Notes under the pieces: model-generated
The model's input: only the letters and a program-made list of their open reading frames with translations
The model's database searches: none
What the model was told of the DNA's origin: nothing
Part shown: positions 1,331 to 61,930 of the stretch, piece by piece
How positions within the stretch are numbered: the first letter of the stretch is position 1
How the letters are laid out: every line of letters starts with the position of its first letter
Sequence record: PX393110.1
DNA: 64,000 bases
Source: a phage
Strand: one strand, 5' to 3'
Program-made: the position numbers and the translations under genes

Positions 1331-1366
1331 TTTAACAGCCTTTGGACCTTACAAAAGAGCGGTTTT
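1331..1366 (-). promoter_or_regulatory. conserved promoter-like motif (plus reading TTTAACAGCCTTT-N-ACAAAAGAGCGG)
   Basis: one of 8 near-identical intergenic copies, each 20-30 nt upstream of a minus-strand start codon. Confidence 0.5.
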
Positions 1367-1508
1367 TATTCAAAAAGAGTGTTAAAATTAGGTTTTTGAG
1401 CTTTACAGGACGCCCCTGCGCTCTAAAGATAGGCCTCAAAAGGGTGTTTTTGTGAAGGTTGTCCGAGCCCCGTCCGGGACGTCTTCAACTATAAACAGGA
1501 GAAATACA

Positions 1509-1982
1509 ATGGGCGAGTTAGCTAAGCAAAACTTAAGTACTATTCAAAAGGGTCTTTCCTTAGTTAATTCGGAGGGTTCTGAATCCGTTAACGTCAAAGC
1601 CCTACAAGGTAAAGAGATAGGCTTACAGATTCTCCAGCTAGGTCTGGCTGAGTCTGAGGCTAACCGAGTAGCCAAGCTTAACGGGATTATCGAGATCCTC
1701 GAAAAGAAAATCTTTGATCCTGAGCGTCTGGACAGACTCACCGAGAAGGAGCAGATCGAGAGATATCAACTGGCATTAGCTAGTGCATCTCAGTCGGCAG
1801 CATTCGTTAAATCGACCATTGGTTCGATTAACTGGACAGCTATCGAAGTATCTCTGCTGAGTCTGGCTTCCGCCATAGAGACTGCCAATGAAGGTCAGTC
1901 TCCTAAGGATCGTAAAGATATGTCTACTATCGCCAATAACTTGATTAAGCAATTGGCGGAAGGCATTGGTCCTAAGGGGTAA
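1509..1982 (+). CDS. putative terminase small subunit
   Basis: ATG at 1509 with AGGAG RBS; immediately upstream of large terminase; 157 aa helical protein. Confidence 0.5.
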   Translation: MGELAKQNLSTIQKGLSLVNSEGSESVNVKALQGKEIGLQILQLGLAESEANRVAKLNGIIEILEKKIFDPERLDRLTEKEQIERYQLALASASQSAAFVKSTIGSINWTAIEVSLLSLASAIETANEGQSPKDRKDMSTIANNLIKQLAEGIGPKG

Positions 1983-1985
1983 ACC

Positions 1986-8569: not shown

Positions 8570-8595
8570 GATTTGATGCGTTAAGTTGGCATTAG

Positions 8596-8628
8596 CTACG
8601 GCCTCTTATTGAGGCCGTAGTTTTTCTT
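8596..8628 (+). terminator. rho-independent terminator after capsid gene
   Basis: 10-bp perfect stem CTACGGCCTC/GAGGCCGTAG with TTATT loop followed by TTTTT. Confidence 0.8.
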
Positions 8629-8718
8629 GTTTTAATTTACTTTGACATATCTCGATTAGTCAAACTAAATTTAGTCAGGACGACACACTAGCACTAACCA
8701 CCAACCAAAGAGGTAGAT

Positions 8719-12355: not shown

Positions 12356-14155
12356 ATGTCTGCACCACGCGTAAGCTATGCGGAGCGCGATCTGAGTGCG
12401 TACGTTCCTGCTACTGAGACTATTTATGCGGCTATCGTAGTTGATGCTGTTAAAGGTCCGGTAGAGAAACCGATCGTGCCTGGCAATGCTCCCAACTTCC
12501 TGAAAATCTTTACGCCAAATGAGCAAATCGACATCGGTATGTCTACTGCGCACTTCTCTGCGCTGACCGTGTTGGAGAAATACTCCAGCGTGGTAGTAGT
12601 CCGTGCTGCCTCTGCTGATGCTCGCTATTCCGGCGCTCTGGTAAATAACGACGGTACCGTCGTTACCGCCAGTGATATTAAAGATCCGTCTGCAGTGGAT
12701 ATGGACGATGAGTCCTTCCTGATTGCCGCAGCTAACCAGGGTCTTTGGGGTGATGAACTCCGCTTCCAGGTACTCGGCTATAAAGCTACTGAGACTGTCT
12801 CTGTAACTGGCGGTATTCTTAAGTCTACCCAGAAATGGGGTGCTGGTTATCCGGTTAAGTTGGCTGGGTCTAACCTGCCTGCTGAAGTAAATGATTATAC
12901 CACTTACTTCGCAGTTCCGGCTACCGGTGGTATTAAACTGGCTACCAGCCGAGCTAATGCTACTGCATCTACTCCGGTCACACTGACCGTGTCCGATGCC
13001 ACTGGCGTTATCGTATCTCCGGCTGTGGAGTACACCAAGACTCCTAATACCTTCAATCTGCGGGTATTTAAAGCAGACGATCTGGTTAATCCGGTGCTGG
13101 ATGTAATCGGTTCTAAGATCAATGGTCTTAAGGATCCGGACAATAAGTCTCTGTACATCGAAGATGTTACTGCCGACAATATCTATGCTCAGGTGTTTAA
13201 CAACCCTCTGAATACTGATCCGGTAGCCGACATCGTTATCCCAGCAGCATTGGGTGGTGGTTCTAACGGATCTCCGGTTACCGATGGCGACTGTATTCGT
13301 GCTCTGAACAAGCTCAACAACCCTCGTGAATTCGCCATTAAAGTGATCATGAACGGTGGCCGTACTTCTCAGGCTTACGGTTCGGCAATCATCGCTCTGG
13401 CAGAGTCCCGTGCTGACTGCGTCGGTATTACCTCGGTTCCTCTGACTGCACAGGGTGGCGTATCTCCTGCTCAGTCTATGGTTAACTATCGTAAGCACGA
13501 CACTAACTGGGATACCAGTTATGCTGCCATGTATGCGCCTCACGTTAAGATCTACGATCGTTACAACGACCGTAATCTGTGGGTATCTCCGGACGGTGTT
13601 GCGACGAAGGCTATCTTCGATACTGCGTCTAACTTCGAGATCTGGTACCCAGTTGGTGGTAACAAGCGCGGTGTGGTTAACGTGCTGGATACGTACGTAC
13701 ACCTGCTCGATTCTGACCAGGATCTTCTGTATGATGCGGGTATTAACCCTATCGTATTCGAAGAAGGCGAAGGTATCAAGATCTGGGGTCAGAAGACTCT
13801 TCAGTATGCCAGCTCCATGCTGGATCGTCTGAACGTCCGACTCCTGCTGGTTACCATCGGTCCGGCTATCCGTAAACTGTTGGCGAACTTCCTGTTCGAA
13901 TTCAACGATGCGGATACTCGTGCACTGGCTAAAGGTATGGTCGATACCTATATGGATTCGATCATGGCTCGTCGTGGTGTTACTAAGTACGTCACTATCT
14001 GTGATGATACCAACAACACTGCAAGCGATGTGGATAACCATATCCTGAGAGTAAGCCTGCTGGTTTGCCCGAATAATTCGACCGAATACATCCCTCTGAC
14101 TATTGGTATTACCAATAACAGTGTGGACTTCGATCTGGCCGCGGAAGCACTGTAA
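12356..14155 (+). CDS. tail sheath protein
   Basis: 599 aa; RBS AAGGAG; biased codon usage; directly followed by tube-sized gene. Confidence 0.7.
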   Translation: MSAPRVSYAERDLSAYVPATETIYAAIVVDAVKGPVEKPIVPGNAPNFLKIFTPNEQIDIGMSTAHFSALTVLEKYSSVVVVRAASADARYSGALVNNDGTVVTASDIKDPSAVDMDDESFLIAAANQGLWGDELRFQVLGYKATETVSVTGGILKSTQKWGAGYPVKLAGSNLPAEVNDYTTYFAVPATGGIKLATSRANATASTPVTLTVSDATGVIVSPAVEYTKTPNTFNLRVFKADDLVNPVLDVIGSKINGLKDPDNKSLYIEDVTADNIYAQVFNNPLNTDPVADIVIPAALGGGSNGSPVTDGDCIRALNKLNNPREFAIKVIMNGGRTSQAYGSAIIALAESRADCVGITSVPLTAQGGVSPAQSMVNYRKHDTNWDTSYAAMYAPHVKIYDRYNDRNLWVSPDGVATKAIFDTASNFEIWYPVGGNKRGVVNVLDTYVHLLDSDQDLLYDAGINPIVFEEGEGIKIWGQKTLQYASSMLDRLNVRLLLVTIGPAIRKLLANFLFEFNDADTRALAKGMVDTYMDSIMARRGVTKYVTICDDTNNTASDVDNHILRVSLLVCPNNSTEYIPLTIGITNNSVDFDLAAEAL

Positions 14156-16096: not shown

Positions 16097-19018
16097 ATGG
16101 TTAGCATAGTTAGAGGCATATCTGGGATTGCTCGTACAGAAGCTACCGATCCGGTTAAGGATGCCTCTGATTACGAGCATGCCAGGTCTAAATTGGAAGA
16201 AGATCTTATCGGGATTCGTTCTACTGTTAAGATACTCTCCAGCAACGATGTAGATGTAGGTCTTAGCTCTGATGAAGTTAAGACCCTGAATACACTGATG
16301 GGTAAGTTTTATGGTAGGGCTAAGTTCTCTACCCAGGAAGCTGAGCAGCTGATCTCCTTAAGAGATAAAGTCGGCCAGGTTGCGGATATGTACGCTACTG
16401 CCGAGGATCAAAAGGCCATCGCTGCAGAATCTTTACTCGACACCTATCAGTCAATACTGAATGACTCTAGACTTACTCGTGGCGTCCGTATGACTGCTAT
16501 GAGAGAACTGAGTGGGTTACTTCGGGTACTTAACGTATCCAATTCCTCACTCAGTACTATCAATATGCGGAAGAATAACCGCATTATTGAGCAAGCTAGA
16601 GCCGAGTTAGCCAACCAGAACGTAAAGATTAAGTATTCTGATACGGTAAAAGTTGCTAACTTAACGAACAGGAGTAAGGATGAGAGGGATACTCTTGACA
16701 GATTTAACATACGTCAAACTGGCCGTAATTTAAGGGACTCGTTCCTTAATACCCCATCGCAGTTTTCCGTAGGTTCTGTCCGCAAGGAAGCACTCTCATC
16801 TGGTCTAGGTGCCCTAGGTTTAGGAGACCTGGATAGTGTATTCGGTATATCTGATAAATTGGATGGTGCTATATCATCCATGTTCCGTAAAAGGAAAGAT
16901 GAACCGGATACTACTGACGAAGAATTAAAGGCCATATCTCGAGAGATTCTTAAATCGGAAAATAAGCCCGATGGAGAATCTTCCACTGAGGCCTCTGCTA
17001 AAGTTGACGGTAAAGAGACTAAGGTCGAGATTACCACTCCAGATGCTACTGTAAATCCAAAACCCAGTTTCGGCCCTACTCCAGAAGAGGAGCAGAATCA
17101 GAAGCTGGATGAGATTAACAATAGCATTCGAGAGTTAATTAATGAGACTAGGTCTGGTCAGGACGAAATGTCCCGTAAGCAGACTCAGCTAATTAATGGT
17201 CAGTCTACTTTGGTGGATATCGACGAGCAATTGGTGTCGGTAACCAGAGCTAATGGAAGAGCTAACCATGAAGAAATTGATCCTTTCGCTAACGAACAGA
17301 AGCAGGGTGCTGCTGATTCTATCTTTGATGATCTTCTCGGTGGTGATGAGCGTGGCCGTAGAGGTAGAAGAGGTCGTGGAAGAAGAGGCAGGACTCGTCT
17401 CGGTCGTGGACTCAGTAAGTTCGGTAGACTCGGTAGGATGGCAGGCGGAGCAGTCGACGCAGCTGCCACCGGAGGACTTGCGAGAGGTGCTGCTCGTGGA
17501 GGCGGCGCGCTTCTGAGAGCTGGTCTTAAGGGAGCTAAGTTCATCCCAGGAATAGGGTTAGCCGTAACTGCTGGTATGGGAGTTTACGATGCTGTCTCTG
17601 GATGGGATGGAGATAAGGCTAAAGAGCTATTCGGTAGGGACGATAACTGGGCTAAGGCTGGCTCGTCGGCAGCTTCATTAGCGTCTGGGTTAACTTTCGG
17701 GTTAGCATCTCCAGAGGATGTGGTGAATGTCGCTAAGTCTGCTGTAGATACTGTACAGAAGACATACGAAGGTGCGGTTAATATTGCAAATAACCTGACG
17801 GCATCATTCTCGGGGATGTATAAGAATGCATCTGACTGGCTTTCCCAGACCGCCTCCGATACATCTAAGTGGTTCTCCGATAAGTATAATGATTCAGCTA
17901 ACTGGTTATCCAGTAAGATGGATGATACGACTAAATGGTTTTCCGATAGTTACGATTCGGTAACCAAGTCCATAACAGGAGAAATCAGTGAATTATCTAA
18001 CTTGGTTACAGAATTTATCAATGACCCTATGAAGTCTATAGGCGAGGGTATTGGTGGATTGTTCGACTGGCTATCAGACTTACCAGTAGTCGGTGACTTC
18101 TTTAAAGGACTTAAGAAAGGAGCTGCTGCGGTATCCAATGGGATTATCGGAGCAGGTGCCTCCATAGTTAATGGCGCAAGAACTGTTGGTGGTATAATCT
18201 CCAATGGTTATGATAGTGCTGTTGATGCTGGTGGCGGTATCCTACAGTCCGCTATGCAGAATGCCTCTCGATACCTCCCCAGCTCTAAAGAGCAGACGGA
18301 GCGTAAGAATAATCTGGCAGAGTATGCTAAGCAGCAAGGAATCGACGATAAAGAACTGGCTCTATTCATGGGTCAGGTTCAGCACGAATCTGGTAACTTC
18401 CGTTATAATAAAGAGCTAGCCTCTGGTAGAGCGTACGAAGGTCGTAAAGATCTGGGTAATGTAAATGCTGGTGACGGGGTTCGTTATAAGGGTCGTGGAT
18501 GGATACAGCTGACTGGTAGAGCTAATTACCAGAAATATGGTAAGATGCTGGGTATAGATCTCGAGAATAATCCTGAGATGGCCGAAGATCCCGAAATCGC
18601 CAATAAACTGGCGGTCGCATACTGGAAAGACCGTGTGCAACCTCAGCTGGAGAAGAAAGGAGCTACTGTTGAAGTGGCAACTAAGGCAGTCAATGGTGGG
18701 TATAATGGGTTAGCAGACCGTGCTGCATACACTGCAGAATGGATGAAGAATGGCTCTGATGCTGAGGCATCTAAGTCAGGAGCTACCCAGGTTGCTCAGA
18801 ACGTACCTCTCGAGGTTCCTAAAGCTCCTACCCCTACAGACGATGTTAATAAACAACGTCAAGATCAGAATAATCAATTGGCTGCTATGGCTGCTGGTTC
18901 CACCAGGAACCAGGATCCTGCTGCTACAACTCCTAACGTACCATCAGTGGTTACGGATAAGAGTGACACTATTGATGACTATGGTCTGGCGTTCTTCAAC
19001 AAGATGGTGTTCTCATAA
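16097..19018 (+). CDS. tape measure protein with C-terminal GH19 lysozyme-like domain
   Basis: 973 aa; Arg/Gly-rich tract; C-terminal QHESGNF...GRGWIQLTGRANY motif of GH19 chitinase-like lysozymes. Confidence 0.7.
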   Translation: MVSIVRGISGIARTEATDPVKDASDYEHARSKLEEDLIGIRSTVKILSSNDVDVGLSSDEVKTLNTLMGKFYGRAKFSTQEAEQLISLRDKVGQVADMYATAEDQKAIAAESLLDTYQSILNDSRLTRGVRMTAMRELSGLLRVLNVSNSSLSTINMRKNNRIIEQARAELANQNVKIKYSDTVKVANLTNRSKDERDTLDRFNIRQTGRNLRDSFLNTPSQFSVGSVRKEALSSGLGALGLGDLDSVFGISDKLDGAISSMFRKRKDEPDTTDEELKAISREILKSENKPDGESSTEASAKVDGKETKVEITTPDATVNPKPSFGPTPEEEQNQKLDEINNSIRELINETRSGQDEMSRKQTQLINGQSTLVDIDEQLVSVTRANGRANHEEIDPFANEQKQGAADSIFDDLLGGDERGRRGRRGRGRRGRTRLGRGLSKFGRLGRMAGGAVDAAATGGLARGAARGGGALLRAGLKGAKFIPGIGLAVTAGMGVYDAVSGWDGDKAKELFGRDDNWAKAGSSAASLASGLTFGLASPEDVVNVAKSAVDTVQKTYEGAVNIANNLTASFSGMYKNASDWLSQTASDTSKWFSDKYNDSANWLSSKMDDTTKWFSDSYDSVTKSITGEISELSNLVTEFINDPMKSIGEGIGGLFDWLSDLPVVGDFFKGLKKGAAAVSNGIIGAGASIVNGARTVGGIISNGYDSAVDAGGGILQSAMQNASRYLPSSKEQTERKNNLAEYAKQQGIDDKELALFMGQVQHESGNFRYNKELASGRAYEGRKDLGNVNAGDGVRYKGRGWIQLTGRANYQKYGKMLGIDLENNPEMAEDPEIANKLAVAYWKDRVQPQLEKKGATVEVATKAVNGGYNGLADRAAYTAEWMKNGSDAEASKSGATQVAQNVPLEVPKAPTPTDDVNKQRQDQNNQLAAMAAGSTRNQDPAATTPNVPSVVTDKSDTIDDYGLAFFNKMVFS

Positions 19019-19653: not shown

Positions 19654-19660
19654 GTGACTT

Positions 19661-20038
19661 ATGTTCAAGATAGACTCAGACAAATTGGCTCAGAGATATG
19701 ATATCTCTAAATTCATGTCTAATGAGAATGGGTCTATCTTGGACTCTGTCGATTCTGAATTTATGTACAAACTGAAGAATCTTTCTCGGTATGGTACATA
19801 TACAGTGATCTCAGAAGTGGGTAGACCCGACCTCCTCTCAGAACGAATCTATGGTGCTGGATTGACTCAGTACTGGTGGATTCTTATGATGGTGAATGAG
19901 TTGCGGTTCCCATGGGACTTAACCATGAACTTAGTTCTGAGATATCCACTGATTGACGATCTGGAAGATATTTACTTCTCGCTAACTCCAGATGTGTCAT
20001 CTGTCTCCGCTACTGCTAAAGTGGAGAGCTTATCATGA
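19661..20038 (+). CDS. LysM-like tail protein (P2 gpX-like)
   Basis: 125 aa; size and position typical of tail protein X; family call is inference. Confidence 0.45.
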   Translation: MFKIDSDKLAQRYDISKFMSNENGSILDSVDSEFMYKLKNLSRYGTYTVISEVGRPDLLSERIYGAGLTQYWWILMMVNELRFPWDLTMNLVLRYPLIDDLEDIYFSLTPDVSSVSATAKVESLS

Positions 20039-21159: not shown

Positions 21160-21161
21160 GT

Positions 21162-41972: not shown

Positions 41973-42013
41973 ATAAATGGGACTCACTCGTGATAGAGTG
42001 AGTCCCATTTTTG
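41971..42013. terminator. bidirectional rho-independent terminator at convergence of plus and minus transcription
   Basis: 11-bp perfect stem GGGACTCACTC/GAGTGAGTCCC, flanked by A-rich on the left and T-run on the right. Confidence 0.8.
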
Positions 42014-44510: not shown

Positions 44511-44981
44511 TTACTTAATCCCGGAATGGCCAAACCCACCGTCGCCACGTTCAGAAACATCAGAGAATTTATCCACAAGCTGGAGCTCTGGATGGATAAC
44601 GGGAAGAAACACCATTTGAGCGATACGGTCGCCGTGGTTAATAACGAAAGATTCGTTACTACGGTTCCACACAGACACCATCAGTTCTCCTTGATAGCCG
44701 GAGTCGATAAGACCAACCAAGTTACCCAGTACGATGCCATTTTTATGGCCGAGGCCGCTGCGGGGAAGAATCACAGAAGCGATGTTCGGATCGCCGATGT
44801 TGATCGCTAGACCGGTAGGGACCAGGATAGTTTCGCCAGGATTTACAGCGATTTTATCGATTTCGTCAGTCTTAATCATCGCACGAAGATCAAGACCAGC
44901 ATCACCAGCTTTAGCGTATTTCGGTAACTCCAGAGAGTCGTCCCAGTTAATAGTTTTCTTTACTTGAACTACGGTCATCAT
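44511..44981 (-). CDS. dut: dUTP diphosphatase
   Basis: 156 aa; [39 protein letters not shown] motifs of trimeric dUTPases. Confidence 0.85.
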
Positions 44982-45358
44982 GATGCCCTTTTGTACTGTT
45001 TAATGAATGCTGCGCAGATGCTGGTGAAGAGGTGATCTTTGACTCGATGCTCTTCCGGCAACCGTGAATATGGAACCATACACGGGTGCGTCTTAGCTGC
45101 GAGATCTTTGATTTCTCCATACTTCCAGCCCTGCTCCTTTTTAGTTTTAACCCAGAATTCATGGGACTCTTCTGGGCTGATACGGTTATTGTGTAAGCAG
45201 TTATACGCTCCATCAATAGCCGACTGTTTTATTTCATCGGATGTTGCTTCCCAGCTTAATTGGGTGAAGTCTCCGATAGAATGGCAGTATGCACGATTAG
45301 CTTCGTGACACACCTTAGCCACCATCAATACGATTTCTTCTCGGGTCATATGAGACAT
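44978..45358 (-). CDS. RyR-domain protein
   Basis: [20 protein letters not shown]...[20 protein letters not shown] resembles RyR repeat. Confidence 0.5.
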
Positions 45359-45582
45359 TATTTACCCTTGTGACGTTGCTTATTAACCTTACGGCCTTTA
45401 GCCTTCTTAGCCGCACGCTTTAATGCAGATGCTGTAGTAGTCTTAGGGCAGCTTACCTTGGTACAGGCGCGACGGAATCCGTCATAGCCTTTAGCAGACA
45501 CTGCTGGGGTGGGCCACATATGACCTAATCCAGCCAGAACCATACCGATACCGCTTAACAAACCAATACGACGTGATTGCAT
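45358..45582 (-). CDS. small membrane-anchored basic protein
   Basis: 74 aa; N-terminal hydrophobic helix, Lys/Arg-rich C-terminus. Confidence 0.45.
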   Translation of the reverse strand: MQSRRIGLLSGIGMVLAGLGHMWPTPAVSAKGYDGFRRACTKVSCPKTTTASALKRAAKKAKGRKVNKQRHKGK

Positions 45583-45602
45583 AGAGATTTCCTTTCCAAC
45601 AG

Positions 45603-45634
45603 TTTAACAGCCTTTGGAGGCTACGAAAGAGCGG
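45603..45634 (-). promoter_or_regulatory. conserved promoter-like motif
   Basis: TTTAACAGCCTTTGGAGGCTACGAAAGAGCGG, about 20 nt upstream of start at 45582. Confidence 0.5.
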
Positions 45635-45944
45635 AATCTTCGTCAGGTAATGAATTAACGAAGTCAGCTATAACTTGAGCATGACATGGTAACGGTAAGC
45701 AGGAGCACCCTAAAGTCTTACCCTTAAGAGTCCGTAAGTAGGAGATGCTTATGTGGCCATCTTTTACTTGCTGGTGGAACCATAGTCTGTATTTCGCGAT
45801 GGCTAATGTTCGGGAACCTACGTTAATAGCGTTAGGTAAATCTTTATGGCTCCACTTATTCCCGAATATAGTACCTCTCCCAACATATAAATCGTAGTTA
45901 GGATTGGTACGTATATTAACCACCCGACAAAGCTTACTCTCCAT
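45621..45944 (-). CDS. DUF4326-like protein
   Basis: YVGRG...GNKW...GKTLGCSCLPLPCHAQV layout recalled from DUF4326. Confidence 0.5.
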   Translation of the reverse strand: MESKLCRVVNIRTNPNYDLYVGRGTIFGNKWSHKDLPNAINVGSRTLAIAKYRLWFHQQVKDGHISISYLRTLKGKTLGCSCLPLPCHAQVIADFVNSLPDEDSALS

Positions 45945-46647
45945 CTTCCACAGAGTTACCCTGCATAGCAATCATGGTATTCACCTCGTGCTCCAGATCC
46001 TGTAACTCTTTTACACGATTGATGGTGCGAACCCAAGTCTTAGCTTCCAGCATCGCATCGAACAATGCATGGTGATCAGACATAGACTCGTGCTGGCTAC
46101 TCAGTTCTTCTTTAATCATGCGACGATCATCGAATGAGATCAGCTGCAGACTAGCCAGAGTGCGGTAATCTCGATTCATCCAGTGTAGGAACGGGGTCTT
46201 ACGTCCTTTAGCCTTAAAGTACCAATCCAGGAATCCCTGGTCGAACTCTGGTGCGTTACCGATGAAGTTCAACATCTGGCAACCAGGATCCTGTAGTACC
46301 TTAGCTACGTACTCTTCGATGATATCCAGAGCTTCGTCAACAGATACTGGATTAGCATATGCAGCATCACGGACGGGTTTCGGGAGAGTGTTGAGCCATT
46401 CAACTACGTTAGGGTCAGACTTCATACCCAGAGCCAGCGACTCTTCTCGATCAATAGTGAAGTAGACGTGGGAGTAGTGATCAGGACCAACCGTCACCAT
46501 ACCTACAGATAGAACTACCCCAGGCTCTTTAAAATCGAGATACTCGGTCTCGATGTCAATTGCGCAGTGGTAGGAGTCGTGATATGACAGGAATCGGTTA
46601 AACAGTTTATTCGGAGCCAGATGGTGTGGCATCATCTTAGTAGACAT
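45934..46647 (-). CDS. 3'-5' exonuclease, DEDDh (DnaQ/RNase T-like)
   Basis: AIDIETE (Exo I), FDQGFL (Exo II), HHALFDA (Exo III) motifs. Confidence 0.7.
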   Translation of the reverse strand: MSTKMMPHHLAPNKLFNRFLSYHDSYHCAIDIETEYLDFKEPGVVLSVGMVTVGPDHYSHVYFTIDREESLALGMKSDPNVVEWLNTLPKPVRDAAYANPVSVDEALDIIEEYVAKVLQDPGCQMLNFIGNAPEFDQGFLDWYFKAKGRKTPFLHWMNRDYRTLASLQLISFDDRRMIKEELSSQHESMSDHHALFDAMLEAKTWVRTINRVKELQDLEHEVNTMIAMQGNSVEDGE

Positions 46648-46677
46648 CGGTTATCCTTATCAGTTGAGGTGCAACAA

Positions 46678-46708
46678 TTTAACAGCCTTTCGAGGGTAAG
46701 AAACGGCG
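46678..46708 (-). promoter_or_regulatory. conserved promoter-like motif (degenerate copy)
   Basis: TTTAACAGCCTTTCGAGGGTAAGAAACGGCGG upstream of exonuclease gene. Confidence 0.4.
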
Positions 46709-46711
46709 GAA

Positions 46712-47351: not shown

Positions 47352-48011
47352 TTAGTCTTCTTCGCCCCACTCATCGTCGTAGGCCTGCTTAGGGGTCTTA
47401 CCTTCATCGTAATCATCCCGCCAGGCTTCCGCATCAGCAGCGCTACCGCCACGAGACTGAGCGTATTGGTGCAGCAGTTTATGCCACTCCGCAAACGATC
47501 CTGTCTCCTTGGTCATTTGTTCCATAACTAACTCCTCCCGAAGTTTCATCAGTAATCGTCCGAGCATATTAATACCAGTGAGGACGGACTTGTACTCCTC
47601 ACGAGTCATACCCCAGAAGGAATCTCCGTGGGTATTTCCTTCGACCAGCTCCTTAGGCCAAGTATCGGTCAATTTTTGAGCTAGCTCCCCACCTTTCGCG
47701 AATTTAATCCGGAGTAGGTGTTCCATCACATCTACTCTCTGTTCCTTCCACGATTCAGTAATGGGCAGCTTACGTCCATATCTCTTGGCCTCACCAGGAG
47801 TATGAAGTCTAGCTATGATAAGACGATGGGCTAGTGATGGAGACTTAGATGCTTGATAGGCATGCTCCACACTAGGGTAAGTAAGGGAGGGAAGAGTCTC
47901 GTTCCCGTAAGGATTCTTATCCTCAATAGGAACAGGATAAAAGTTAGATAGGAATCGGTACTCTCCGATAAACTCCAGAATAGAGTTCTTGTCGGTCCAG
48001 ATCCGCATCAT
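47352..48011 (-). CDS. NADAR (YbiA-like) domain protein, putative ADP-ribosyl N-glycosidase
   Basis: YRFLSNFYP, VEHAYQASK, KRYGRK...WKEQRVDVMEHLLRIKF, LVEGN..D.FWG colinear with E. coli YbiA. Confidence 0.75.
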   Translation of the reverse strand: MMRIWTDKNSILEFIGEYRFLSNFYPVPIEDKNPYGNETLPSLTYPSVEHAYQASKSPSLAHRLIIARLHTPGEAKRYGRKLPITESWKEQRVDVMEHLLRIKFAKGGELAQKLTDTWPKELVEGNTHGDSFWGMTREEYKSVLTGINMLGRLLMKLREELVMEQMTKETGSFAEWHKLLHQYAQSRGGSAADAEAWRDDYDEGKTPKQAYDDEWGEED

Positions 48012-49369: not shown

Positions 49370-49397
49370 AATTTCTCCTAACAGTAGTTCTGACACC

Positions 49398-49428
49398 TTA
49401 ACAGCCTTTCAGCACCTAAAAAGAGCGG
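49398..49428 (-). promoter_or_regulatory. conserved promoter-like motif
   Basis: TTAACAGCCTTTCAGCACCTAAAAAGAGCGG. Confidence 0.5.
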
Positions 49429-49663: not shown

Positions 49664-50192
49664 TAATAGTGTTCCTCAACATAATCAAATAATAACTCCT
49701 AAACTAATGGACGTAGGAACTACCGGCCCCTTATCTAATTTAACCAATTGGAGTGTAGCGGCGGCTGGCAGAGCCGCCGCGTACACGAGACTAAGCTCCT
49801 CCGGAGACTCTGACCTTGCCCACCCGAGCCTCCCCCTGGGATTCGCTCCCTAAAGCCACTTTGGGCTTTAACTCGCTCACCCTACGCGTGACGCAAGGTA
49901 TACTACGTAGATGCCCCTAAGAATGTTGAGAGGGTATAAACCTTAGTGTAGTTCGCATCAGTCCCCACTAAGGTCTCGACAATACCTTCATCCTCTATCC
50001 AGTTCCGGACAATCTGAATAGGGACACTACCTAACTATTCGTAATGCAACCATAGCCGGAGACGTAACTTAATCGTGCCCTATGTATACGCATTACTTAA
50101 TGAGAGTATATAGCTGCTCTTCCCAGACTATCGAATCTGTTTTACGGAAGAGCAACTATTAGGCCGTTAGGTGCCTTAATAGAACTCAGCTA
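49664..50192. other. ~530-bp non-coding region with multiple strong hairpins (candidate structured RNA or replication/regulatory element)
   Basis: no ORF above 60 aa on either strand; 9-bp GC stem GCGGCGGCT/AGCCGCCGC at 49759-49781; 11-bp stem at 50113-50158; nested inverted repeat at 50041-50096. Confidence 0.4.
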
Positions 50193-50363
50193 TTAGTAAA
50201 GTTTCACTACTTTGTTAGATACCCAGGACTGAGGGTTGGCAGATTCCACCATTTTGTCGTAGGCACGATCTGCTTGATCTTTAGTCTCAAATTCCGCAAT
50301 TACCGAGTGAACTGATGGAGCATCCCGAGCAACAATACTACTTATAATAAGTAACTTAAACAT
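50193..50363 (-). CDS. small hypothetical protein (56 aa)
   Basis: internal ATG at 50361-50363; longer track ORF overlaps the upstream gene. Confidence 0.35.
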   Translation of the reverse strand: MFKLLIISSIVARDAPSVHSVIAEFETKDQADRAYDKMVESANPQSWVSNKVVKLY

Positions 50364-50715
50364 GAGCCATCCTCCTGGAGCGGTCGCAGGAGTCCCAGAT
50401 TGCGTTATATACTCTCTTACCATCTTCGTAAGATAGACCGTAAGCATCACCATTACAGTCAATTAACGCACTTACTCCTCCCAGCTTAACTTCCGGACCG
50501 TAAATATCGTTATAGACATGGATTACACCATTAGCGCTTACCCAAGTCCATGTATCTTTACGAATCATCCGGATTTCGTCATTATCCAACATTCTGATAA
50601 ATTCGGTAGGGTCCCCAGTACGGATCATATTCTCATAAGCTAGTCGCTCTTCCGATTTAGTCAGTAAGGGAATTGCTGGAACAGTTTTAAATATAGATTT
50701 TAATTTCTCAAACAT
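50356..50715 (-). CDS. hypothetical protein
   Basis: 119 aa; preceded by tandem duplicated SD sequence. Confidence 0.5.
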   Translation of the reverse strand: MFEKLKSIFKTVPAIPLLTKSEERLAYENMIRTGDPTEFIRMLDNDEIRMIRKDTWTWVSANGVIHVYNDIYGPEVKLGGVSALIDCNGDAYGLSYEDGKRVYNAIWDSCDRSRRMAHV

Positions 50716-50776: not shown

Positions 50777-50793
50777 AGGAATAACCTCTACAG

Positions 50794-50825
50794 TTTAACA
50801 GCCTTTTGACCGTACAAAAGAGCGG
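50794..50825 (-). promoter_or_regulatory. conserved promoter-like motif
   Basis: TTTAACAGCCTTTTGACCGTACAAAAGAGCGG. Confidence 0.5.
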
Positions 50826-55425: not shown

Positions 55426-55679
55426 TTACGGAGATCCGTGTAGACATAGTTCTGATGCTCGGTACGAGTTACCAGACCCAGCTTACCTTTACTGGTGACT
55501 GCGTACTGAACACCATCTTCGTTGATCAGTTTGTAGTTATCAGCACGTACCCTCTCGCCACGTTTATCTTCAGGCTCAAGAATAGTTGCTTCTATGGTGT
55601 TATTGGGATGAATGATGGCTTTCTCCACCACCATATCCACATGTACCGATACACCTAATCGGCCACCAAGAGAAGGCAT
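55422..55679 (-). CDS. hypothetical protein
   Basis: 85 aa ORF; start may be internal ATG. Confidence 0.4.
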   Translation of the reverse strand: MPSLGGRLGVSVHVDMVVEKAIIHPNNTIEATILEPEDKRGERVRADNYKLINEDGVQYAVTSKGKLGLVTRTEHQNYVYTDLRK

Positions 55680-55842
55680 GTAATTTAACTCCCATCTTTT
55701 GGTATTTCTTGCGGATCTTCTGAACTACGCGATCCTGGTTACGTCTGGTATTCTTACGCATACCATTAATAGCTTCTTCCATCTCACGATGCATAGCGCT
55801 ACGCATCTTATCGTTAAGAGTCAATTCCTGACGTTCTCCCAT
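55600..55842 (-). CDS. hypothetical basic protein, first gene after promoter motif
   Basis: 80 aa; AGAGGAGG RBS; 3' end overlaps next ORF so true extent is uncertain. Confidence 0.4.
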   Translation of the reverse strand: MGERQELTLNDKMRSAMHREMEEAINGMRKNTRRNQDRVVQKIRKKYQKMGVKLHAFSWWPIRCIGTCGYGGGESHHSSQ

Positions 55843-55862
55843 GTGTCCTCCTCTTTGAACAC

Positions 55863-55894
55863 TTTAACAGCCTTTGGAACCCTATAAAGAGCGG
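55863..55894 (-). promoter_or_regulatory. conserved promoter-like motif
   Basis: TTTAACAGCCTTTGGAACCCTATAAAGAGCGG. Confidence 0.5.
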
Positions 55895-55896: not shown

Positions 55897-56526
55897 TTAT
55901 TTAGGGATCCATGAATACTTTAAATTCCATGGCCTAGGGGTACCATGGAAACAAACTACTGCAACCCCATTAGGCACCGACCCGTTTCCGGTAGACCTGT
56001 GACAGTAATGCTCCTGGTCAGGACCTACTACTGATACCTTGTAGGAACAGAATTTACCTGGGTAGAGATCTTGTATGCGAGGTACTCCATTAAAGAATGG
56101 GCAGATAAACTCCTGATCACCACCTACAGAGTGATTAGCCATGAATCTATCTGGACTAACTATCCAAGCATTCCAGATGCGCTCAGCTAAGATAGGCTCA
56201 ACACGCATCACGCTACTGTTAACCATCCCAGTATGGTACCAGTCTCGGAGAATAGTTGATTCGTCACAGTTCAGCAGGAATGTGATATCGTCGATAATTG
56301 CTGTATCTAAATCGAAGAACACGAATGGCTCCTGGATAGTGAATAGCTCCATCTTACTCCACCAGCCAGGATAATCATGCTTCATAGGTATCCACTCAAC
56401 TCCTTCGATAGGCTCTTTAGAGATACATGCATATCTTGTACCTTCTGGGAGTTGTCTACCTACCCATTTAACGTGATCTTCTGTGAAGTCCTTACCCTTA
56501 CGAAATACCGTAACCACTAGCGACAT
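55897..56526 (-). CDS. putative glycosyltransferase (DxD-containing)
   Basis: 209 aa; FDLDTAIIDD possible DxD motif; in glycosyltransferase cluster. Confidence 0.4.
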   Translation of the reverse strand: MSLVVTVFRKGKDFTEDHVKWVGRQLPEGTRYACISKEPIEGVEWIPMKHDYPGWWSKMELFTIQEPFVFFDLDTAIIDDITFLLNCDESTILRDWYHTGMVNSSVMRVEPILAERIWNAWIVSPDRFMANHSVGGDQEFICPFFNGVPRIQDLYPGKFCSYKVSVVGPDQEHYCHRSTGNGSVPNGVAVVCFHGTPRPWNLKYSWIPK

Positions 56527-57485
56527 TTAGTCTTCTCCATATGTTTAAATCCCTGGATCATGTTCTTAGCCACGTTATCCCAGGTACAATCTTTAACCTT
56601 ATCAGCAATCTTGGTTCTGTTAAGCTTAAGGAGTATTTCGTCCCAGTTTATCTTAGAGCCAACTATGTGATGCTCCACAGATTCCAGACGATCTTTAGGA
56701 ATAAGCCCTTCCTTAGTTACTATCAGAGCTCCGCACCGAGCCGCTTCCAGGACAGTAAGGCCTAACGACTCCTTATGAGTAACTATGAAGATGTCGCAGC
56801 ATCTGATTAATGCAGCGAACTCCTGACTGCTTACTCCTCCACGACGATACTCCTCAACACTTATATTCTCCTCGTCGATAACGCATAATCCATTATCGGT
56901 AAGAGTGTAAGATACGTGAGGAACCGGAATATGCTTAAGGTTCATCATCATGGTTAGGGAGTAATCGAAGTCCGACAGGTCAAATAGCGGATGGTCTACG
57001 AATATCCTAAGTACACCATCCGACATCTTCTCTGGGTAGAATAGCTTATCATCAGCTGCCCACCCTACCTGCCAGTTATTATCCAGATGCCTTTTCAGAC
57101 GACTCGGATTGTCTAAGTACTTATAGGTATCGTCCCGAAGAGTGAAAGTTACGTCTACCTGTTTACAGTCTAGCATCGAACCATCATAGATATGGGTAAC
57201 TAATCCCTTAAAGTGCTTCTTAAGGTATTCTCCTATTTCTAGAGGAATCTGAGTAAACGGACGTACTCCCACATATAAGATATGATCGCACTTCTCTTCC
57301 CGAGCTATTTCTAATACTTGATCAGCATAGACATGAGGATTAACCGAATCGTGGTACTCTGGCCATAATACTAACTCTACTCCATTAGCCTCCAGAGCGC
57401 CTCGGAGATGATATTTCCACATGGTACTGAAGTTAGTTATCTGATGTGAACTACCAGGACAATTTGCTATATACAGTAACTTCAT
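56517..57485 (-). CDS. GT-B fold glycosyltransferase (GT4-like)
   Basis: 322 aa; ESLGLTVLEAARCGALIV matches the E-x7-E motif. Confidence 0.65.
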   Translation of the reverse strand: MKLLYIANCPGSSHQITNFSTMWKYHLRGALEANGVELVLWPEYHDSVNPHVYADQVLEIAREEKCDHILYVGVRPFTQIPLEIGEYLKKHFKGLVTHIYDGSMLDCKQVDVTFTLRDDTYKYLDNPSRLKRHLDNNWQVGWAADDKLFYPEKMSDGVLRIFVDHPLFDLSDFDYSLTMMMNLKHIPVPHVSYTLTDNGLCVIDEENISVEEYRRGGVSSQEFAALIRCCDIFIVTHKESLGLTVLEAARCGALIVTKEGLIPKDRLESVEHHIVGSKINWDEILLKLNRTKIADKVKDCTWDNVAKNMIQGFKHMEKTKCR

Positions 57486-59664: not shown

Positions 59665-59670
59665 AGCTTA

Positions 59671-59925
59671 TCACTGGTTCAGAACTGCCACGATCTTTTC
59701 TGCCACCTGCTCCAGAGTATCGTCGCTATCATAGTCGAAGTCTGGAATACTGTCTTCCATACCCAGTTCATCTTCAACACGCATGATGATCTCCACTTCA
59801 TCCAGAGAATCTGCACCTAACTGCTCACCGGTAGTAGTTTCAGTTACTTCCAGAATATCAACCATCATGATGTCAGCTACTGCAGATCGCAGTGCATCTT
59901 TAACCTGTTCCAAAGTTACAGACAT
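59671..59925 (-). CDS. acyl carrier protein homolog
   Basis: 84 aa acidic; LGADSLDEVEIIMRVEDELG matches ACP phosphopantetheine-attachment motif; start shares one nt with ligase stop. Confidence 0.75.
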   Translation of the reverse strand: MSVTLEQVKDALRSAVADIMMVDILEVTETTTGEQLGADSLDEVEIIMRVEDELGMEDSIPDFDYDSDDTLEQVAEKIVAVLNQ

Positions 59926-61868
59926 TATTCAGCTCCAATGATTTTACGGAATTGATCTTCGGTAACGATCTTGGTACCCTTAGCTTCGGCAGCCTTAAAC
60001 TTACTGGACTGACTTGGTTTATCGCATACCAGATATTCTGCGTCGCCGATACCGACTTCGACTACGCCATATTTGATCCAGGAGTTAACCAGTTCGCTAC
60101 GAGGCTTACTAAGCTTACCAGTTAAGCAGATCTTGAACTTTCCTTCCGGAAGCGGTTCCTCTACCTTAGAGGCCACCCAGTTCAGAGGAAGATTCAGCAC
60201 CTTCAGGATTACTTCCTGATTCTCTACAATCTTCTTAGCTACGGAACCCATGCATGCATCATAGATTGCCTTACAGATTTTGTAGTCCTCGGTATTGACC
60301 TGGATACCGTCATTAACCATGTCGTGGAAGCTATTGTTACGCAATACACGAATCATCTGGTCGCGAGTCACCGCAGTGGCAATACGCACTCCTGTTGCAT
60401 AACCAAGGCCATCCGTCCAGGTACAGGTCAGCATGTGGTCCATAGAGATAGGACGATCCTTCATATTGAAGAAGGACTGACGAGTAAGCTGGAGAGGGCC
60501 ATCGTACATCTCTACCATACTGAATACTGGATGAGATGGACCAGTCTCGATGATATCGTTCAACATGGCAACATCATCTAGTTTAGCCTGCTCGGCAAAC
60601 TTGTTGATATTCGTCCCACCGAGACCCTTAGGAGCGAAGTCACGGATTATCGTACGAATAACCATCGGGTCTAACTTAGTCTTGATGCGAATATGCACGC
60701 CATCCCAGAAAGTACGTACCCCATCGACGAATTCAGGAATTACCGCAGTGACGGGTTCCACGACTTCTTCGATATGAGGAATTACCTCGTTACGGCGACT
60801 GATCTTGATCTTAGCACCAGGTCCGATACCAGCACTCTTGATGTACTCAGCATTCCATCCGGATGCATAAGTTACATTAACTCCACTCATGTCTACCGTC
60901 TCGAACTCAACAGTAGGCACGACTCGGCCGTAACCACTAACTACCCAGTGTACCTTAACCACGGTAGTGTCATAGAATGCTGATTGGTACTTGATCTTAT
61001 AGTGGACAGTATTCTTGCCCAGCATATTCTCATCCCAGTCAACATTCAGAGATCCCAGAACTACGCCATCCAACAGGTAGTTGCAGACCGGATCTTCGCG
61101 GAACTTAGATGGTGGGTTAGCCACTAGCCAAGTATTGACATAACCAGCAGGAAGAACGAAGTACTTAACTACTTTGAACCCAGCCTTACTTAAACATAGT
61201 AGCAGCTGGTTGTAGTCATCCATCCATGTCTCGTGATCCACATCCTCGTAGAATGCAGTTACCGAATATGCAACCACATCCAGCAGTTCCATTAATGCAG
61301 GATCACTGTATTTAGCCAGAGCAATACCAGAAGCAGCATTACGCTGGTTACTGTACTCGTGGCTGATCCGCTCGAACTTATCATCGGGAATAACGATTTC
61401 GCAGCGGACTTCTTTAATACCTTTAGGAACCTGGCGAGGAAACTCGGCACACTCCAGACTCTTCGTGATGTCCAGACCAGTGACGCCGTCGTGACGAGTT
61501 AAGCCACGGACGAAGTTACCGTCGTAGTCGTAATACAGAACTACCGAGATGCCGTCCAGTTTAGCCGAAGCGACGAATCCCTTAACTTCTTCGTGACCAT
61601 GGAGGAAGTTAAATCCCTCTTCCACAGCACCGATCTTAACCTGGTCAAGACCACCCACGAATGAACCATGTGGGCACTTAGCCAGATGTTCAGCAGCTTC
61701 GGTTACTCCCCAGCCTGGGGTAGTGAGGAGTGGGTTAGTAGGATCCAGCTCAGCTAATTTCTCGGTAAGAGCATCGAACTCTTCGTCCGTAATAATGGGC
61801 TGGTCACCATTATAATATGCATTAGCCGCATTCTTAATTTGCTCTATCAGAGCAGCGACTTTTTCCAT
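59925..61868 (-). CDS. ligA: NAD-dependent DNA ligase
   Basis: 647 aa; KLDG adenylation motif in context colinear with E. coli LigA; C-terminal BRCT-like region. Confidence 0.85.
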   Translation of the reverse strand: MEKVAALIEQIKNAANAYYNGDQPIITDEEFDALTEKLAELDPTNPLLTTPGWGVTEAAEHLAKCPHGSFVGGLDQVKIGAVEEGFNFLHGHEEVKGFVASAKLDGISVVLYYDYDGNFVRGLTRHDGVTGLDITKSLECAEFPRQVPKGIKEVRCEIVIPDDKFERISHEYSNQRNAASGIALAKYSDPALMELLDVVAYSVTAFYEDVDHETWMDDYNQLLLCLSKAGFKVVKYFVLPAGYVNTWLVANPPSKFREDPVCNYLLDGVVLGSLNVDWDENMLGKNTVHYKIKYQSAFYDTTVVKVHWVVSGYGRVVPTVEFETVDMSGVNVTYASGWNAEYIKSAGIGPGAKIKISRRNEVIPHIEEVVEPVTAVIPEFVDGVRTFWDGVHIRIKTKLDPMVIRTIIRDFAPKGLGGTNINKFAEQAKLDDVAMLNDIIETGPSHPVFSMVEMYDGPLQLTRQSFFNMKDRPISMDHMLTCTWTDGLGYATGVRIATAVTRDQMIRVLRNNSFHDMVNDGIQVNTEDYKICKAIYDACMGSVAKKIVENQEVILKVLNLPLNWVASKVEEPLPEGKFKICLTGKLSKPRSELVNSWIKYGVVEVGIGDAEYLVCDKPSQSSKFKAAEAKGTKIVTEDQFRKIIGAE

Positions 61869-61898
61869 CTTTGTTATTCCTTACGGTTGGATTGACAC

Positions 61899-61930
61899 TT
61901 TAACAGCCTTTTAGCACCCTAAAAGAGCGG
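61899..61930 (-). promoter_or_regulatory. conserved promoter-like motif
   Basis: TTTAACAGCCTTTTAGCACCCTAAAAGAGCGG, 30 nt upstream of ligase start. Confidence 0.5.

What the first reader, a model, noticed from the sequence alone, without database searches (positions are those of the whole stretch)
1331..61930. Eight copies of a conserved ~32-bp promoter-like motif heading minus-strand operons
Plus-strand reading TTTAACAGCCTTT-(5-9 nt variable)-(T)A(C/A)AAAAGAGCGG occurs at 1..16 (truncated), 1331..1366, 45603..45634, 46678..46708, 49398..49428, 50794..50825, 55863..55894 and 61899..61930. Every copy is intergenic with the same orientation, and its left end lies 20-30 nt upstream of the start codon of a minus-strand gene. 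It has no good sigma70 -35/-10 match, so it is more likely recognised by a phage-modified or phage-encoded transcription factor, or is a conserved 5'-leader element.
Basis: seen in the sequence. Interest (0 to 1): 0.6.

Follow-up and report, generated by a model that had tools for sequence, protein, structure and literature searches.

The report
Phage-specific bipartite promoter, many copies
A 35-base two-part signal sits in front of the early and replication gene groups of a rare E. coli phage; it is almost certainly the phage's own promoter, and the phage carries an RNA polymerase beta-prime gene but no beta gene, which could link the two.

Summary
The window holds seven full copies and one cut copy of CCGCTCTTT-N10-AAAGGCTGTTAA-NN-TG, all on the minus strand (0.00 expected by chance). 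The window is a relative of E. coli myophages vB_EcoM_IME392 and EP_H11. Their complete genomes carry 25 and 24 copies, all on the strand of the non-structural arm and none inside the 40-kb structural arm. The motif holds about 50 bits. Between orthologous copies the two blocks hardly change, while the spacer and flanks do. No RNA structure, covariation or Rfam family fits it.

Relatives have homologous two-block motifs: Acinetobacter phage Ab1-TPeters, Ralstonia phage RP13 and a metagenomic contig. The sigma-70-like TGnTAAnnT sub-motif of the E. coli phages is not kept in them. The genome has no excess of canonical sigma-70 promoters.

My reading is a lineage-specific promoter read with phage-encoded help. 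Which polymerase reads it is inferred, not shown.

The lineage encodes a split, apparently active beta-prime but no detectable beta subunit. It also has a thymidine-hypermodification gene set. I also found a second promoter-like class, and a related variant at the head of the structural arm. As a kind, phage-specific promoters are well known. This one, and its possible link to a beta-prime-only polymerase, appears undescribed.

The parts
1..16 (-). Truncated class-1 copy: upstream block CCGCTCTTT plus part of the spacer. The rest lies beyond the left edge of the window.
   Evidence: The orthologous complete copy is at IME392 60160 and EP_H11 98511.
1328..1362 (-). Class-1 promoter-like motif CCGCTCTTT-TGTAAGGTCC-AAAGGCTGTTAA-AC-CG. 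The ATG follows 18 nt later (gene about 971-1312).
45600..45634 (-). Class-1 motif heading 45358-45582 and the RyR-domain and dUTPase genes. The stop codon of upstream ORF 45621-45971 lies in its spacer.
46675..46709 (-). Class-1 motif (upstream block CCGCCGTTT) heading 45934-46647, an Rv2179c-like exoribonuclease.
49394..49428 (-). Class-1 motif heading a run of small genes and the NADAR gene 47352-48011.
50791..50825 (-). Class-1 motif followed by a stable 5' hairpin. The next ORF (50356-50715) starts about 78 nt downstream.
   Evidence: orthologous EP copy 50219: -17.8 kcal/mol, z -5.05
55860..55894 (-). Class-1 motif heading 55600-55842 and following small genes.
61896..61930 (-). Class-1 motif heading the 647-aa DNA ligase gene 59925-61868.
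63401..63462 (-). Related element not in the original finding ('class 2'): TTATTTTTCAAATAAACGAATTATGAAC-N7-TAAAGCCCGTTCTTTTGGGTGGGGCG. It shares the core AAAG-NNN-GTT with class 1.
   Evidence: There are five copies per genome in EP_H11 and IME392, and a homologous class in metagenomic contig L015.
1418..1454 (+). Related variant at the head of the structural arm: GCGCTCTAAAG-N10-AAAAGGGTGTTTTTGTG. It has the same two blocks with spacing 2 nt longer, and is the only such element on the plus strand of the 40-kb structural arm.
   Evidence: conserved in IME392 and EP_H11

Best explanation
The motif is the main promoter of the non-structural (early/middle, replication and nucleotide-metabolism) genes of an IME392-like E. 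coli myophage. It has two parts. An upstream block CCGCTCTTT and a downstream block AAAGGCTGTTAA(NN)TG lie at a fixed distance of about two helical turns, start to start 19 bp. Transcription probably starts a few bases after the TG, giving short leaders that carry the Shine-Dalgarno sequence or, in some copies, a 5' hairpin.

SHOWN: the copies, their strand and their positions; the genome-wide restriction to one arm; selection on the two blocks but not on the spacer; the absence of RNA structure; homologous two-block motifs in related phages of other hosts; the absence of the motif from bacterial genomes; no excess of canonical sigma-70 promoters.

INFERRED: the motif is read by an RNA polymerase that carries phage-encoded components, not by the plain host sigma-70 holoenzyme. 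The candidates are the split beta-prime that this lineage encodes, plus one or more unidentified specificity factors. One module would read each block, in the way sigma region 4 or an activator reads an upstream element and sigma regions 2/3 read a downstream one. Related motif classes that share the core AAAG-NNN-GTT but differ upstream would then give temporal classes. These are class 2 in front of the beta-prime genes and the variant at the head of the structural arm.
For: - Seven full copies against 0.00 expected.
- 24 copies in EP_H11 and 25 in IME392, all on the gene strand of the non-structural arm and none on the other strand.
- About 50 bits of information.
- 18 of 24 EP_H11 copies lie 17-82 nt upstream of an annotated start codon.
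- In 18 orthologous EP/IME392 pairs the differences per position are 0.005 in AAAGGCTGTTAA and 0.031 in CCGCTCTTT, against 0.083 in the spacer, 0.111 in the NN positions and 0.083 in the upstream flank.
- Consensus fold is -0.62 kcal/mol with no compensatory pair, and Rfam gives nothing.
- Homologous bipartite motifs occur in Ab1-TPeters (CTGTCTCTTAA-N9/10-AAAACCTGTT..TGT), RP13 (AACnnCTCTAT-N9-AGACCTTGT) and contig L015 (AAAGGCTGTTAA..TGT). The TAnnnT reading is not kept in Ab1 class A or in RP13.
- Sigma-70-like sites number 35 against 39.8 expected in window 44-64 kb, and 27 against 33 expected in the whole EP_H11 genome.
- The motif is absent from IMG/VR. In GTDB genomes and JGI metagenomes it occurs only as single, chance-level hits.
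- The lineage encodes beta-prime N and C halves with the Mg-binding triad kept.
Against: - No transcription start or expression data exist for this phage, so promoter function is inferred from anatomy.
- 6 of 7 window copies and 22 of 24 EP_H11 copies read TGnTAnnnT, a workable extended -10 for E. coli sigma-70. Host sigma-70 may therefore take part, or even suffice for basal activity.
- The beta-prime genes themselves lie downstream of a class-1 copy (EP_H11 22480) and of class-2 copies. If phage beta-prime were required for all of these, the first round of expression would need virion-delivered protein or some host recognition.
Confidence: 0.68

Rival explanations
1. Sigma appropriation, as in T4 middle promoters. 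Host sigma-70 reads TGnTAAnnT as an extended -10 element, and a phage activator bound to CCGCTCTTT (and perhaps to AAAGGC) replaces the -35 contact. The phage beta-prime would play no part in recognition.
For: TGnTAnnnT is present in 6/7, 22/24 and 23/25 copies. The upstream block lies where a -35 substitute would sit. There is no -35 hexamer.
Against: In Ab1-TPeters class A only 3 of 6 copies keep TAnnnT, and RP13 shows no constant register for it, although the two-block motif is clearly homologous. The strongest conservation (AAAGGC, 2 bits per position) lies where sigma-70 makes no base-specific contact. 5' hairpins that begin directly after TGT in several copies would be cut by a start site 7 nt after the hexamer. 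No MotA- or AsiA-like protein turned up in the Pfam scans that were run, but these did not cover every small protein.
Confidence: 0.22
2. Plain host promoters: the copies are ordinary extended -10 early promoters used by unmodified E. coli RNA polymerase. The extra conservation would be historical, from recent duplication of one promoter cassette.
For: An extended -10-like string is present. The genome has no other candidate host promoters, so something must be read first.
Against: Duplication history does not explain the pattern. Spacers and flanks differ completely between copies while both blocks are kept. Between orthologues the blocks change 3-16 times less often than the spacer. The motif is also kept in phages of Acinetobacter and Ralstonia that lack the -10 reading.
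Confidence: 0.07
3. An RNA element rather than a DNA signal: a conserved 5' leader, processing site or terminator in the transcripts.
For: It lies between genes, just upstream of ribosome-binding sites. One EP_H11 copy (32906) has its AGGCTGTTAAC as the 5' arm of a terminator-like hairpin.
Against: RNAalifold gives -0.62 kcal/mol, and 0 pairs show changes on both sides. The named stem does no better than slid controls. There is no Rfam match. A fixed-length variable spacer between two invariant blocks is not how known leaders or RNase sites look. There is no T-run after the motif.
Confidence: 0.04
4. An operator array: the motif is the binding site of a phage regulator (repressor or activator) placed next to weak, unrecognised promoters, and is not the promoter core itself.
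For: A two-block site with fixed spacing also fits a two-domain or dimeric DNA-binding protein.
Against: The blocks are neither inverted nor direct repeats of each other. The orientation is strictly that of the genes in about 25 of 25 copies. No separate promoter-like sequence accompanies them.
Confidence: 0.05

Closest known systems
T7/T3/SP6-type promoters of single-subunit phage RNA polymerases
   Same: Long, nearly invariant, phage-specific consensus. Some tens of copies per genome, all in gene orientation. They lie immediately upstream of genes with short leaders, some with 5' hairpins. They are absent from the host genome.
   Different: Those promoters are one continuous 23-bp element read by a single-subunit polymerase. 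Here there are two blocks with a free 10-bp spacer. No ORF is left in EP_H11 or IME392 that could encode such a polymerase: all non-structural ORFs of 500 aa or more are assigned to SbcC, topoisomerase, DNA polymerase, helicases, ligase or beta-prime.
T4 middle promoters (MotA box plus sigma-70 -10; MotA/AsiA sigma appropriation). Own knowledge of the system.
   Same: A bipartite promoter in which a phage-specific upstream element replaces the -35 hexamer and the downstream part resembles TAnnnT. It serves replication and nucleotide-metabolism genes of a phage with modified DNA.
   Different: The upstream block has a different sequence and lies about 6 bp further upstream. AAAGGC in the spacer region is invariant. 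The -10 reading is lost in related phages. No MotA or AsiA homologue was seen.
Bacillus phage SPO1 middle and late promoters (gp28, gp33/34 sigma factors on hmU DNA). Own knowledge.
   Same: Non-sigma-70 bipartite promoters on thymine-replaced DNA, read by the host core with phage-encoded specificity subunits and used as a temporal cascade.
   Different: The sequences are unrelated. No sigma-family protein is detectable here. This lineage additionally encodes beta-prime.
Promoters of multisubunit RNA polymerases of jumbo phages (phiKZ, AR9), reviewed in PMC7598289
   Same: Phages that encode beta-prime homologues split into N and C halves, with a bioinformatically visible conserved motif upstream of early operons.
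   Different: Jumbo-phage early motifs are about 10-nt AT-rich elements centred at -10. Late motifs are TATG (phiKZ) or AACA-N6-TW (AR9). Those phages encode beta as well as beta-prime, usually in two sets. The genome here is 111-116 kb, has one beta-prime set about 31% identical to bacterial RpoC, and has no detectable beta.

Membership tests
Canonical sigma-70 promoter | -35 hexamer resembling TTGACA, 16-18 bp upstream of the -10 hexamer | tested here: not met
   The consensus scan does not call any motif copy. The region shows 35 sites against 39.8 expected. The bases at the -35 position read CTTTTn.
Canonical sigma-70 promoter | -10 hexamer TAnnnT, optionally with TG one base upstream | tested here: met
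   TGnTAnnnT is present in 6/7 window copies, 22/24 EP_H11 copies and 23/25 IME392 copies. It is not conserved in the homologous motifs of Ab1-TPeters class A (3/6) or RP13.
T7-like single-subunit RNAP promoter | A single-subunit RNA polymerase gene in the same genome | tested here: not met
   The annotated records and my Pfam scans assign all large non-structural ORFs to other functions. No unassigned ORF of 500 aa or more remains in that arm.
T4-type middle promoter (sigma appropriation) | MotA box (a/t)(a/t)(a/t)TGCTTtA centred at -30, with MotA and AsiA encoded by the phage | tested here: not met
   The upstream block is CCGCTCTTT, centred near -36 if TAAnnT is taken as -12..-7. No MotA or AsiA domain appeared in the Pfam scans of 60 proteins, but not every small protein was scanned.
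Jumbo-phage multisubunit-RNAP promoters | Early: AT-rich motif of about 10 nt at -10. Late: TATG or AACA-N6-TW. | tested here: not met
   The motif is a 35-bp two-block element containing G+C. Consensus sequences were taken from PMC7598289.
Jumbo-phage multisubunit-RNAP promoters | The phage encodes both beta-like and beta-prime-like subunits | tested here: not met
   Beta-prime halves are found at E 1e-19 to 1e-53. Salmonella RpoB and YerA41 beta find nothing better than E 0.1 in the three complete genomes.
Intrinsic terminator or structured leader RNA | A conserved stem supported by covariation, and a T-run for terminators | tested here: not met
   Consensus energy is -0.62 kcal/mol with 0 compensatory pairs. 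There are no Rfam hits at gathering thresholds.
Functional promoter (any class) | A primary transcript 5' end just downstream, with activity that depends on the motif | not testable with these tools
   No transcriptome was found for IME392, EP_H11 or Ab1-TPeters (literature searches).

The most novel reading that the evidence does not exclude
The motif is the promoter of a hybrid RNA polymerase. A phage-encoded, split but catalytically intact beta-prime would replace the host beta-prime on host beta, alpha and omega, because the lineage has no beta gene of its own. With an unidentified phage specificity factor, this enzyme would read a two-block promoter on thymidine-hypermodified DNA. Promoter classes sharing the core AAAG-NNN-GTT would set the temporal programme.
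Probability: 0.3. Interest if true: 0.85.

Novelty: new member of a known kind. Interest (0 to 1): 0.55.

Why it matters
Phage-specific promoters are the handles by which phage transcription programmes are worked out and reused as tools. This one defines the transcription units of a rare, barely annotated coliphage lineage; the one paper that characterises IME392 calls it 'genetically unique' in its title. It also gives exact sequences for start-site mapping, in vitro transcription and pull-downs.

The motif further points at an odd apparatus. Three complete genomes encode a beta-prime about 31% identical to bacterial RpoC, with the active-site aspartates kept, yet no beta. They also carry a 5-hmdU kinase-based thymidine hypermodification set. 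If the motif is read by a host core re-fitted with phage beta-prime, that would be a way of taking over host transcription that I could not find described. If it turns out to be a sigma-70 plus activator promoter, it is a further example of a known strategy.

Tried and rejected
1. RNA hairpin or leader reading. RNAalifold and explicit pair counting on 33 distinct copies gave no structure and no covariation. Rfam found nothing.

2. Searches for further carriers of the motif. IMG/VR gave none. The JGI metagenome scan gave 4 single hits and the GTDB genome scan 7 single hits in unrelated bacteria, about what chance gives for 19 specified bases. The protein-based locus search in IMG/VR with beta-prime N found nothing.

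3. Looking for the reader of the motif.
   - Pfam and PHROG scans of the proteins around the beta-prime genes, of the structural-arm unknowns and of 20 window proteins found no sigma, MotA/AsiA or HTH regulator.
   - The conserved 400-483-aa family next to the DNA polymerase has 30 homologues. A lone sub-threshold hit to RNA_pol_Rpb2_3 (E 0.1, 1 of 25 members) is treated as chance. There is no PDB sequence hit.
   - The 218-aa protein upstream of beta-prime N has only two close homologues and no annotation.

4. A search for beta with Salmonella RpoB, YerA41 beta and motif regexes found nothing.

5. I first thought that the flank upstream of the 50806 copy marked a recombination junction. BLAST shows continuous homology with small indels, so this was dropped.

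6. YerA41, a distant relative that does have beta, shows no similar motif in the 19 kb examined.

7. Literature: no paper on transcription or promoters of IME392-like phages was found. The IME392 description (Arch Virol 2021) is not held in the library.
Full report
**1. Observation**

Read in the direction of the genes (window minus strand), the repeat is (A/T-rich, often a stop codon)-CCGCTCTTT-N10-AAAGGCTGTTAA-NN-TG(T)-N2-3-(G)GAGG. The pattern CCGCNNTTT-N10-AAAGGCTGTTAA matches seven times with at most one mismatch, all on the minus strand, at 1332-1362, 45604-45634, 46679-46709, 49398-49428, 50795-50825, 55864-55894 and 61900-61930. One hundred dinucleotide-preserving shuffles gave 0.00 matches (half-sites).

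Window bases 1-16 are the upstream block of an eighth copy. That copy is complete at the orthologous place in IME392.

Six copies end 18-30 nt before an ATG with a Shine-Dalgarno sequence. The 50795-50825 copy is followed by a stable hairpin, and its next ORF starts about 78 nt away. In five copies the upstream gene's stop codon ends 1-2 nt before CCGC. In one copy the stop codon lies in the spacer.

**2. Identity of the window**

Megablast places the window next to Escherichia phage vB_EcoM_IME392 (MH719082.1, 116 kb, 95% identity) and EP_H11 (OP688485.1, 111 kb, 92%). These are the only two hits among 50,697 phage records.

Both genomes have one long arm of non-structural genes on one strand and a 40-kb structural arm on the other. 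In the window, 1452-41972 (plus strand) is the structural arm. The regions 42025-64000 and 19-1327 (minus strand) belong to the non-structural arm.

**3. Genome-wide picture**

EP_H11 has 24 copies and IME392 has 25. All are on the strand of the non-structural genes and none is on the other strand. None lies inside the structural arm.

Of the EP_H11 copies, 18 of 24 lie 17-82 nt upstream of an annotated start. These head the genes for topoisomerase, 5-hmdU kinase, thymidylate-synthase homologue, DNA polymerase, ligase, helicases and many small genes. Three copies lie in a gene-poor stretch just left of the window.

The motif carries about 50 bits. AAAGGCTGTT and CCGC are close to 2 bits per position, and the spacing never varies.

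**4. Selection**

In 18 orthologous EP_H11/IME392 pairs the differences per position are as follows:

| Region | Differences per position |
|---|---|
| AAAGGCTGTTAA | 0.005 |
| TG | 0.028 |
| CCGCTCTTT | 0.031 |
| Spacer | 0.083 |
| Upstream flank | 0.083 |
| NN positions | 0.111 |

Paralogous copies share nothing outside the two blocks. Two invariant blocks separated by a free spacer of constant length is the signature of recognition of double-stranded DNA by two protein modules.

**5. It is not an RNA element**

On 33 distinct copies RNAalifold finds three pairs, -0.62 kcal/mol and no compensatory change. The only plausible stem (CTCTTT/AAAGG) pairs no better than slid controls and shows no covariation. 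Rfam gives no hit anywhere in the window.

**6. Relatives**

A tblastn search with the phage beta-prime N half finds a diverse set of phages.

- **Acinetobacter phage Ab1-TPeters** (109.7 kb, same genome layout, beta-prime N 38-39% identical). It has two motif classes on its non-structural strand: CTGTCTCTTAA-N9/10-AAAACCTGTT(A/T)A..TGT.GGG and AAACTC(A/G)AAATTGA...-AAA(A/C)GCTGTTTAAAGTG.
- **Ralstonia phage RP13**. It has AAC..C(T/G)CTAT-N9-AGACCTTGT.
- **Metagenomic contig L015**, with the same gene order. It keeps CTAAAAGGCTGTTAA..TGT at four gene heads.
- **Vibrio phage Va2**, which is more distant. It has a different motif, GAACC-N5-AACCTTGCT.

The two-block promoter is therefore a lineage trait that drifts with the phage, not with the host. 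The sub-string that looks like an extended -10 in the E. coli phages (TGnTAAnnT; 6/7, 22/24 and 23/25 copies) is kept in only 3 of 6 Ab1 class-A copies. In RP13 it has no constant register.

**7. Host-type promoters**

Sigma-70-like sites are no more frequent than in shuffled sequence. There are 35 against 39.8 expected in window 44-64 kb, and 27 against 33 expected in the whole EP_H11 genome at 10 or more matches of 12. The motif does not occur in bacterial genomes beyond chance.

**8. Transcription apparatus of the lineage (outside the window)**

EP_H11 26582-28096 and 29676-31244 encode the C and N halves of a beta-prime homologue.

- Pfam finds Rpb1 domains 1-5.
- phmmer with Salmonella RpoC gives E 9e-53 and 2e-25.
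- Identity is 31%, and NADFDGD is kept as NMDVDGD.

No beta was found. Salmonella RpoB and the 924-aa beta of the distant relative YerA41 were both used as queries; YerA41 beta itself hits RpoB at 6e-46. Neither gives anything better than E 0.1 against all six-frame ORFs of the three complete genomes. In the same searches the beta-prime halves score 1e-19 to 1e-27.

The lineage also encodes a 5-hmdU DNA kinase (PF18723, 4e-35), a dCTP deaminase, a dUTPase and a thymidylate-synthase homologue. IME392 is listed among phages with a YerA41-type DNA polymerase in work on T-hypermodified genomes (PMC12686479). The DNA is therefore probably thymidine-hypermodified. This is an inference from gene content.

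**9. Related promoter-like classes**

A second conserved intergenic element occurs five times per genome and once in the window, at 63401-63462 on the minus strand. Its sequence is TTATTTTTCAAATAA(A/C)CGAnTTnTGrAC-N6-8-TAAAGCCCGTTCTTTTGGGTGGGGCG. In EP_H11 two of these head the operons that contain the beta-prime C and N halves. L015 has the homologous class, AAAGCGAGTTCTTTTGGG.

The head of the structural arm (window 1418-1454, plus strand) carries GCGCTCTAAAG-N10-AAAAGGGTGTTTTTGTG. This has the same two blocks with a spacing 2 nt longer, and it is the only such element in the 40-kb arm.

All three classes share the core AAAG-NNN-GTT at about the same distance from a class-specific upstream block. 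This is what one expects if one polymerase reads the core and different factors read the upstream blocks. That reading is an inference.

**10. Mechanism and its rivals**

The best-supported reading is a lineage-specific promoter that needs phage-encoded recognition. Two blocks totalling about 50 bits are far more than the host holoenzyme reads. The most conserved bases (AAAGGC) lie where sigma-70 makes no specific contact. The motif also survives in phages whose copies lack a -10 reading.

Which proteins do the reading is open. A T4-like arrangement, with sigma-70 on TGnTAAnnT plus a phage activator on the upstream block, remains a serious rival for the E. coli phages. Plain host promoters, an RNA element and an operator array are unlikely, for the reasons given under the rival explanations.

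The start site is not known. In four EP_H11 copies (98511, 108665, 15295, 102471) a hairpin begins 0-2 nt after the T of TGT. This hints at a start close to TGT rather than 7 nt after TAAnnT, but only a minority of copies have such hairpins.

**11. Comparison with known systems and novelty**

In distribution and conservation the motif behaves like T7-group promoters. In architecture it resembles T4 middle or SPO1 middle promoters. The presence of a split beta-prime recalls phiKZ and AR9, but it meets the defining features of none of these (see the membership table). The known jumbo-phage consensus sequences are quite different (PMC7598289).

I found no paper that describes promoters or transcription of IME392-like phages. 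The original IME392 description could not be read, so I cannot exclude that it mentions the repeat.

As a kind, a phage-specific promoter consensus is well known, so the finding is a new member of that kind. The unusual part is the apparatus it points to.

Noticed in passing
window 63401-63462 (minus strand); EP_H11 2266, 25022, 28846, 33061, 36559: A second conserved intergenic element ('class 2'): AT-rich tract, then CGAnTTnTGrAC-N6-8-TAAAGCCCGTTCTTTTGGGTGGGGCG, then a GC hairpin. There are five copies per genome. Two head the beta-prime operons. A partial GAAC/GTTC inverted repeat followed by TTTT also makes it look terminator-like (the tool called 63435-63415 a terminator-like site).
   Followed up: partly
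window 1418-1454 (plus strand): The head of the 40-kb structural arm carries a variant of the same two blocks (GCGCTCTAAAG-N10-AAAAGGGTGTTTTTGTG) with spacing 2 nt longer. It is conserved in IME392 and EP_H11 and is a possible late promoter. Nearby, at 1374-1388 on the plus strand, lies AAAGAGTGTTAAAAT; the TG is not conserved in IME392.
   Followed up: partly
outside the window: EP_H11 26582-28096 and 29676-31244; IME392 16457-21418; Ab1-TPeters 22684-24207 and 62831-64147: The lineage encodes a split beta-prime with the catalytic triad kept (about 31% identical to RpoC). No beta homologue is detectable in three complete genomes, whereas the distant relative YerA41 has beta next to its beta-prime halves. 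Vibrio phage Va2 has an unsplit 1192-aa beta-prime.
   Followed up: partly
window 43602-44225, 44511-44981, 56517-57485; EP_H11 12422-13393: A gene set for thymidine hypermodification: dCTP deaminase, dUTPase and a glycosyltransferase in the window; a 5-hmdU DNA kinase (PF18723), a thymidylate-synthase homologue, a PIG-L deacetylase and a methyltransferase elsewhere in the genome. All T positions of the promoter may therefore be modified in virion DNA.
   Followed up: partly
window 49820-49895 (minus strand), in the ORF-poor stretch 49664-50190: A 76-nt element about 81% identical to one in the gene-poor, promoter-rich region left of the window (IME392 57382-57454; EP_H11 101333-101405). It contains the hairpin AAAGCCC-AAAGT-GGCTTT. 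The fold z-score is only -1.5 and there is no Rfam hit. It may be a small RNA or a remnant.
   Followed up: partly
EP_H11 98.5-103.5 kb / IME392 55.3-60.2 kb (just left of window position 1): Seven class-1 copies lie within 6 kb that has very few annotated genes, several followed directly by hairpins. This may be an early region with tiny ORFs or non-coding RNAs. IME392 has two copies only 58 bp apart (59555 and 59497).
   Followed up: no
window 41975-42012: Where the two arms converge there is a perfect hairpin flanked by A-runs and T-runs (AAATGGGACTCACTC-GTGATA-GAGTGAGTCCCATTTTT). It looks like a bidirectional intrinsic terminator.
   Followed up: no
window 8590-8666 (plus strand): After the major capsid gene comes a terminator-like hairpin (CTACGGCCTC-TTATT-GAGGCCGTAG plus TTTTT). 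It is followed by TTGACA-18-TAAATT, the best sigma-70-like site of the structural arm (also found in EP_H11 at 90191).
   Followed up: no
window 47352-48011, 45621-45971, 45934-46647, 44978-45358: Accessory genes behind the promoters: a NADAR domain, DUF4326, an Rv2179c-like 3'-5' exoribonuclease and a RyR domain. EP_H11 32054-32560 has an Acb1-like (anti-CBASS) domain. These are possible counter-defence genes.
   Followed up: no
Ab1-TPeters 62831-64678: The beta-prime N gene of the Acinetobacter phage is annotated in three pieces, and the first ORF ends right at the NAD of the catalytic NADFDGD motif. This may be an intervening sequence or a frameshift.
   Followed up: no
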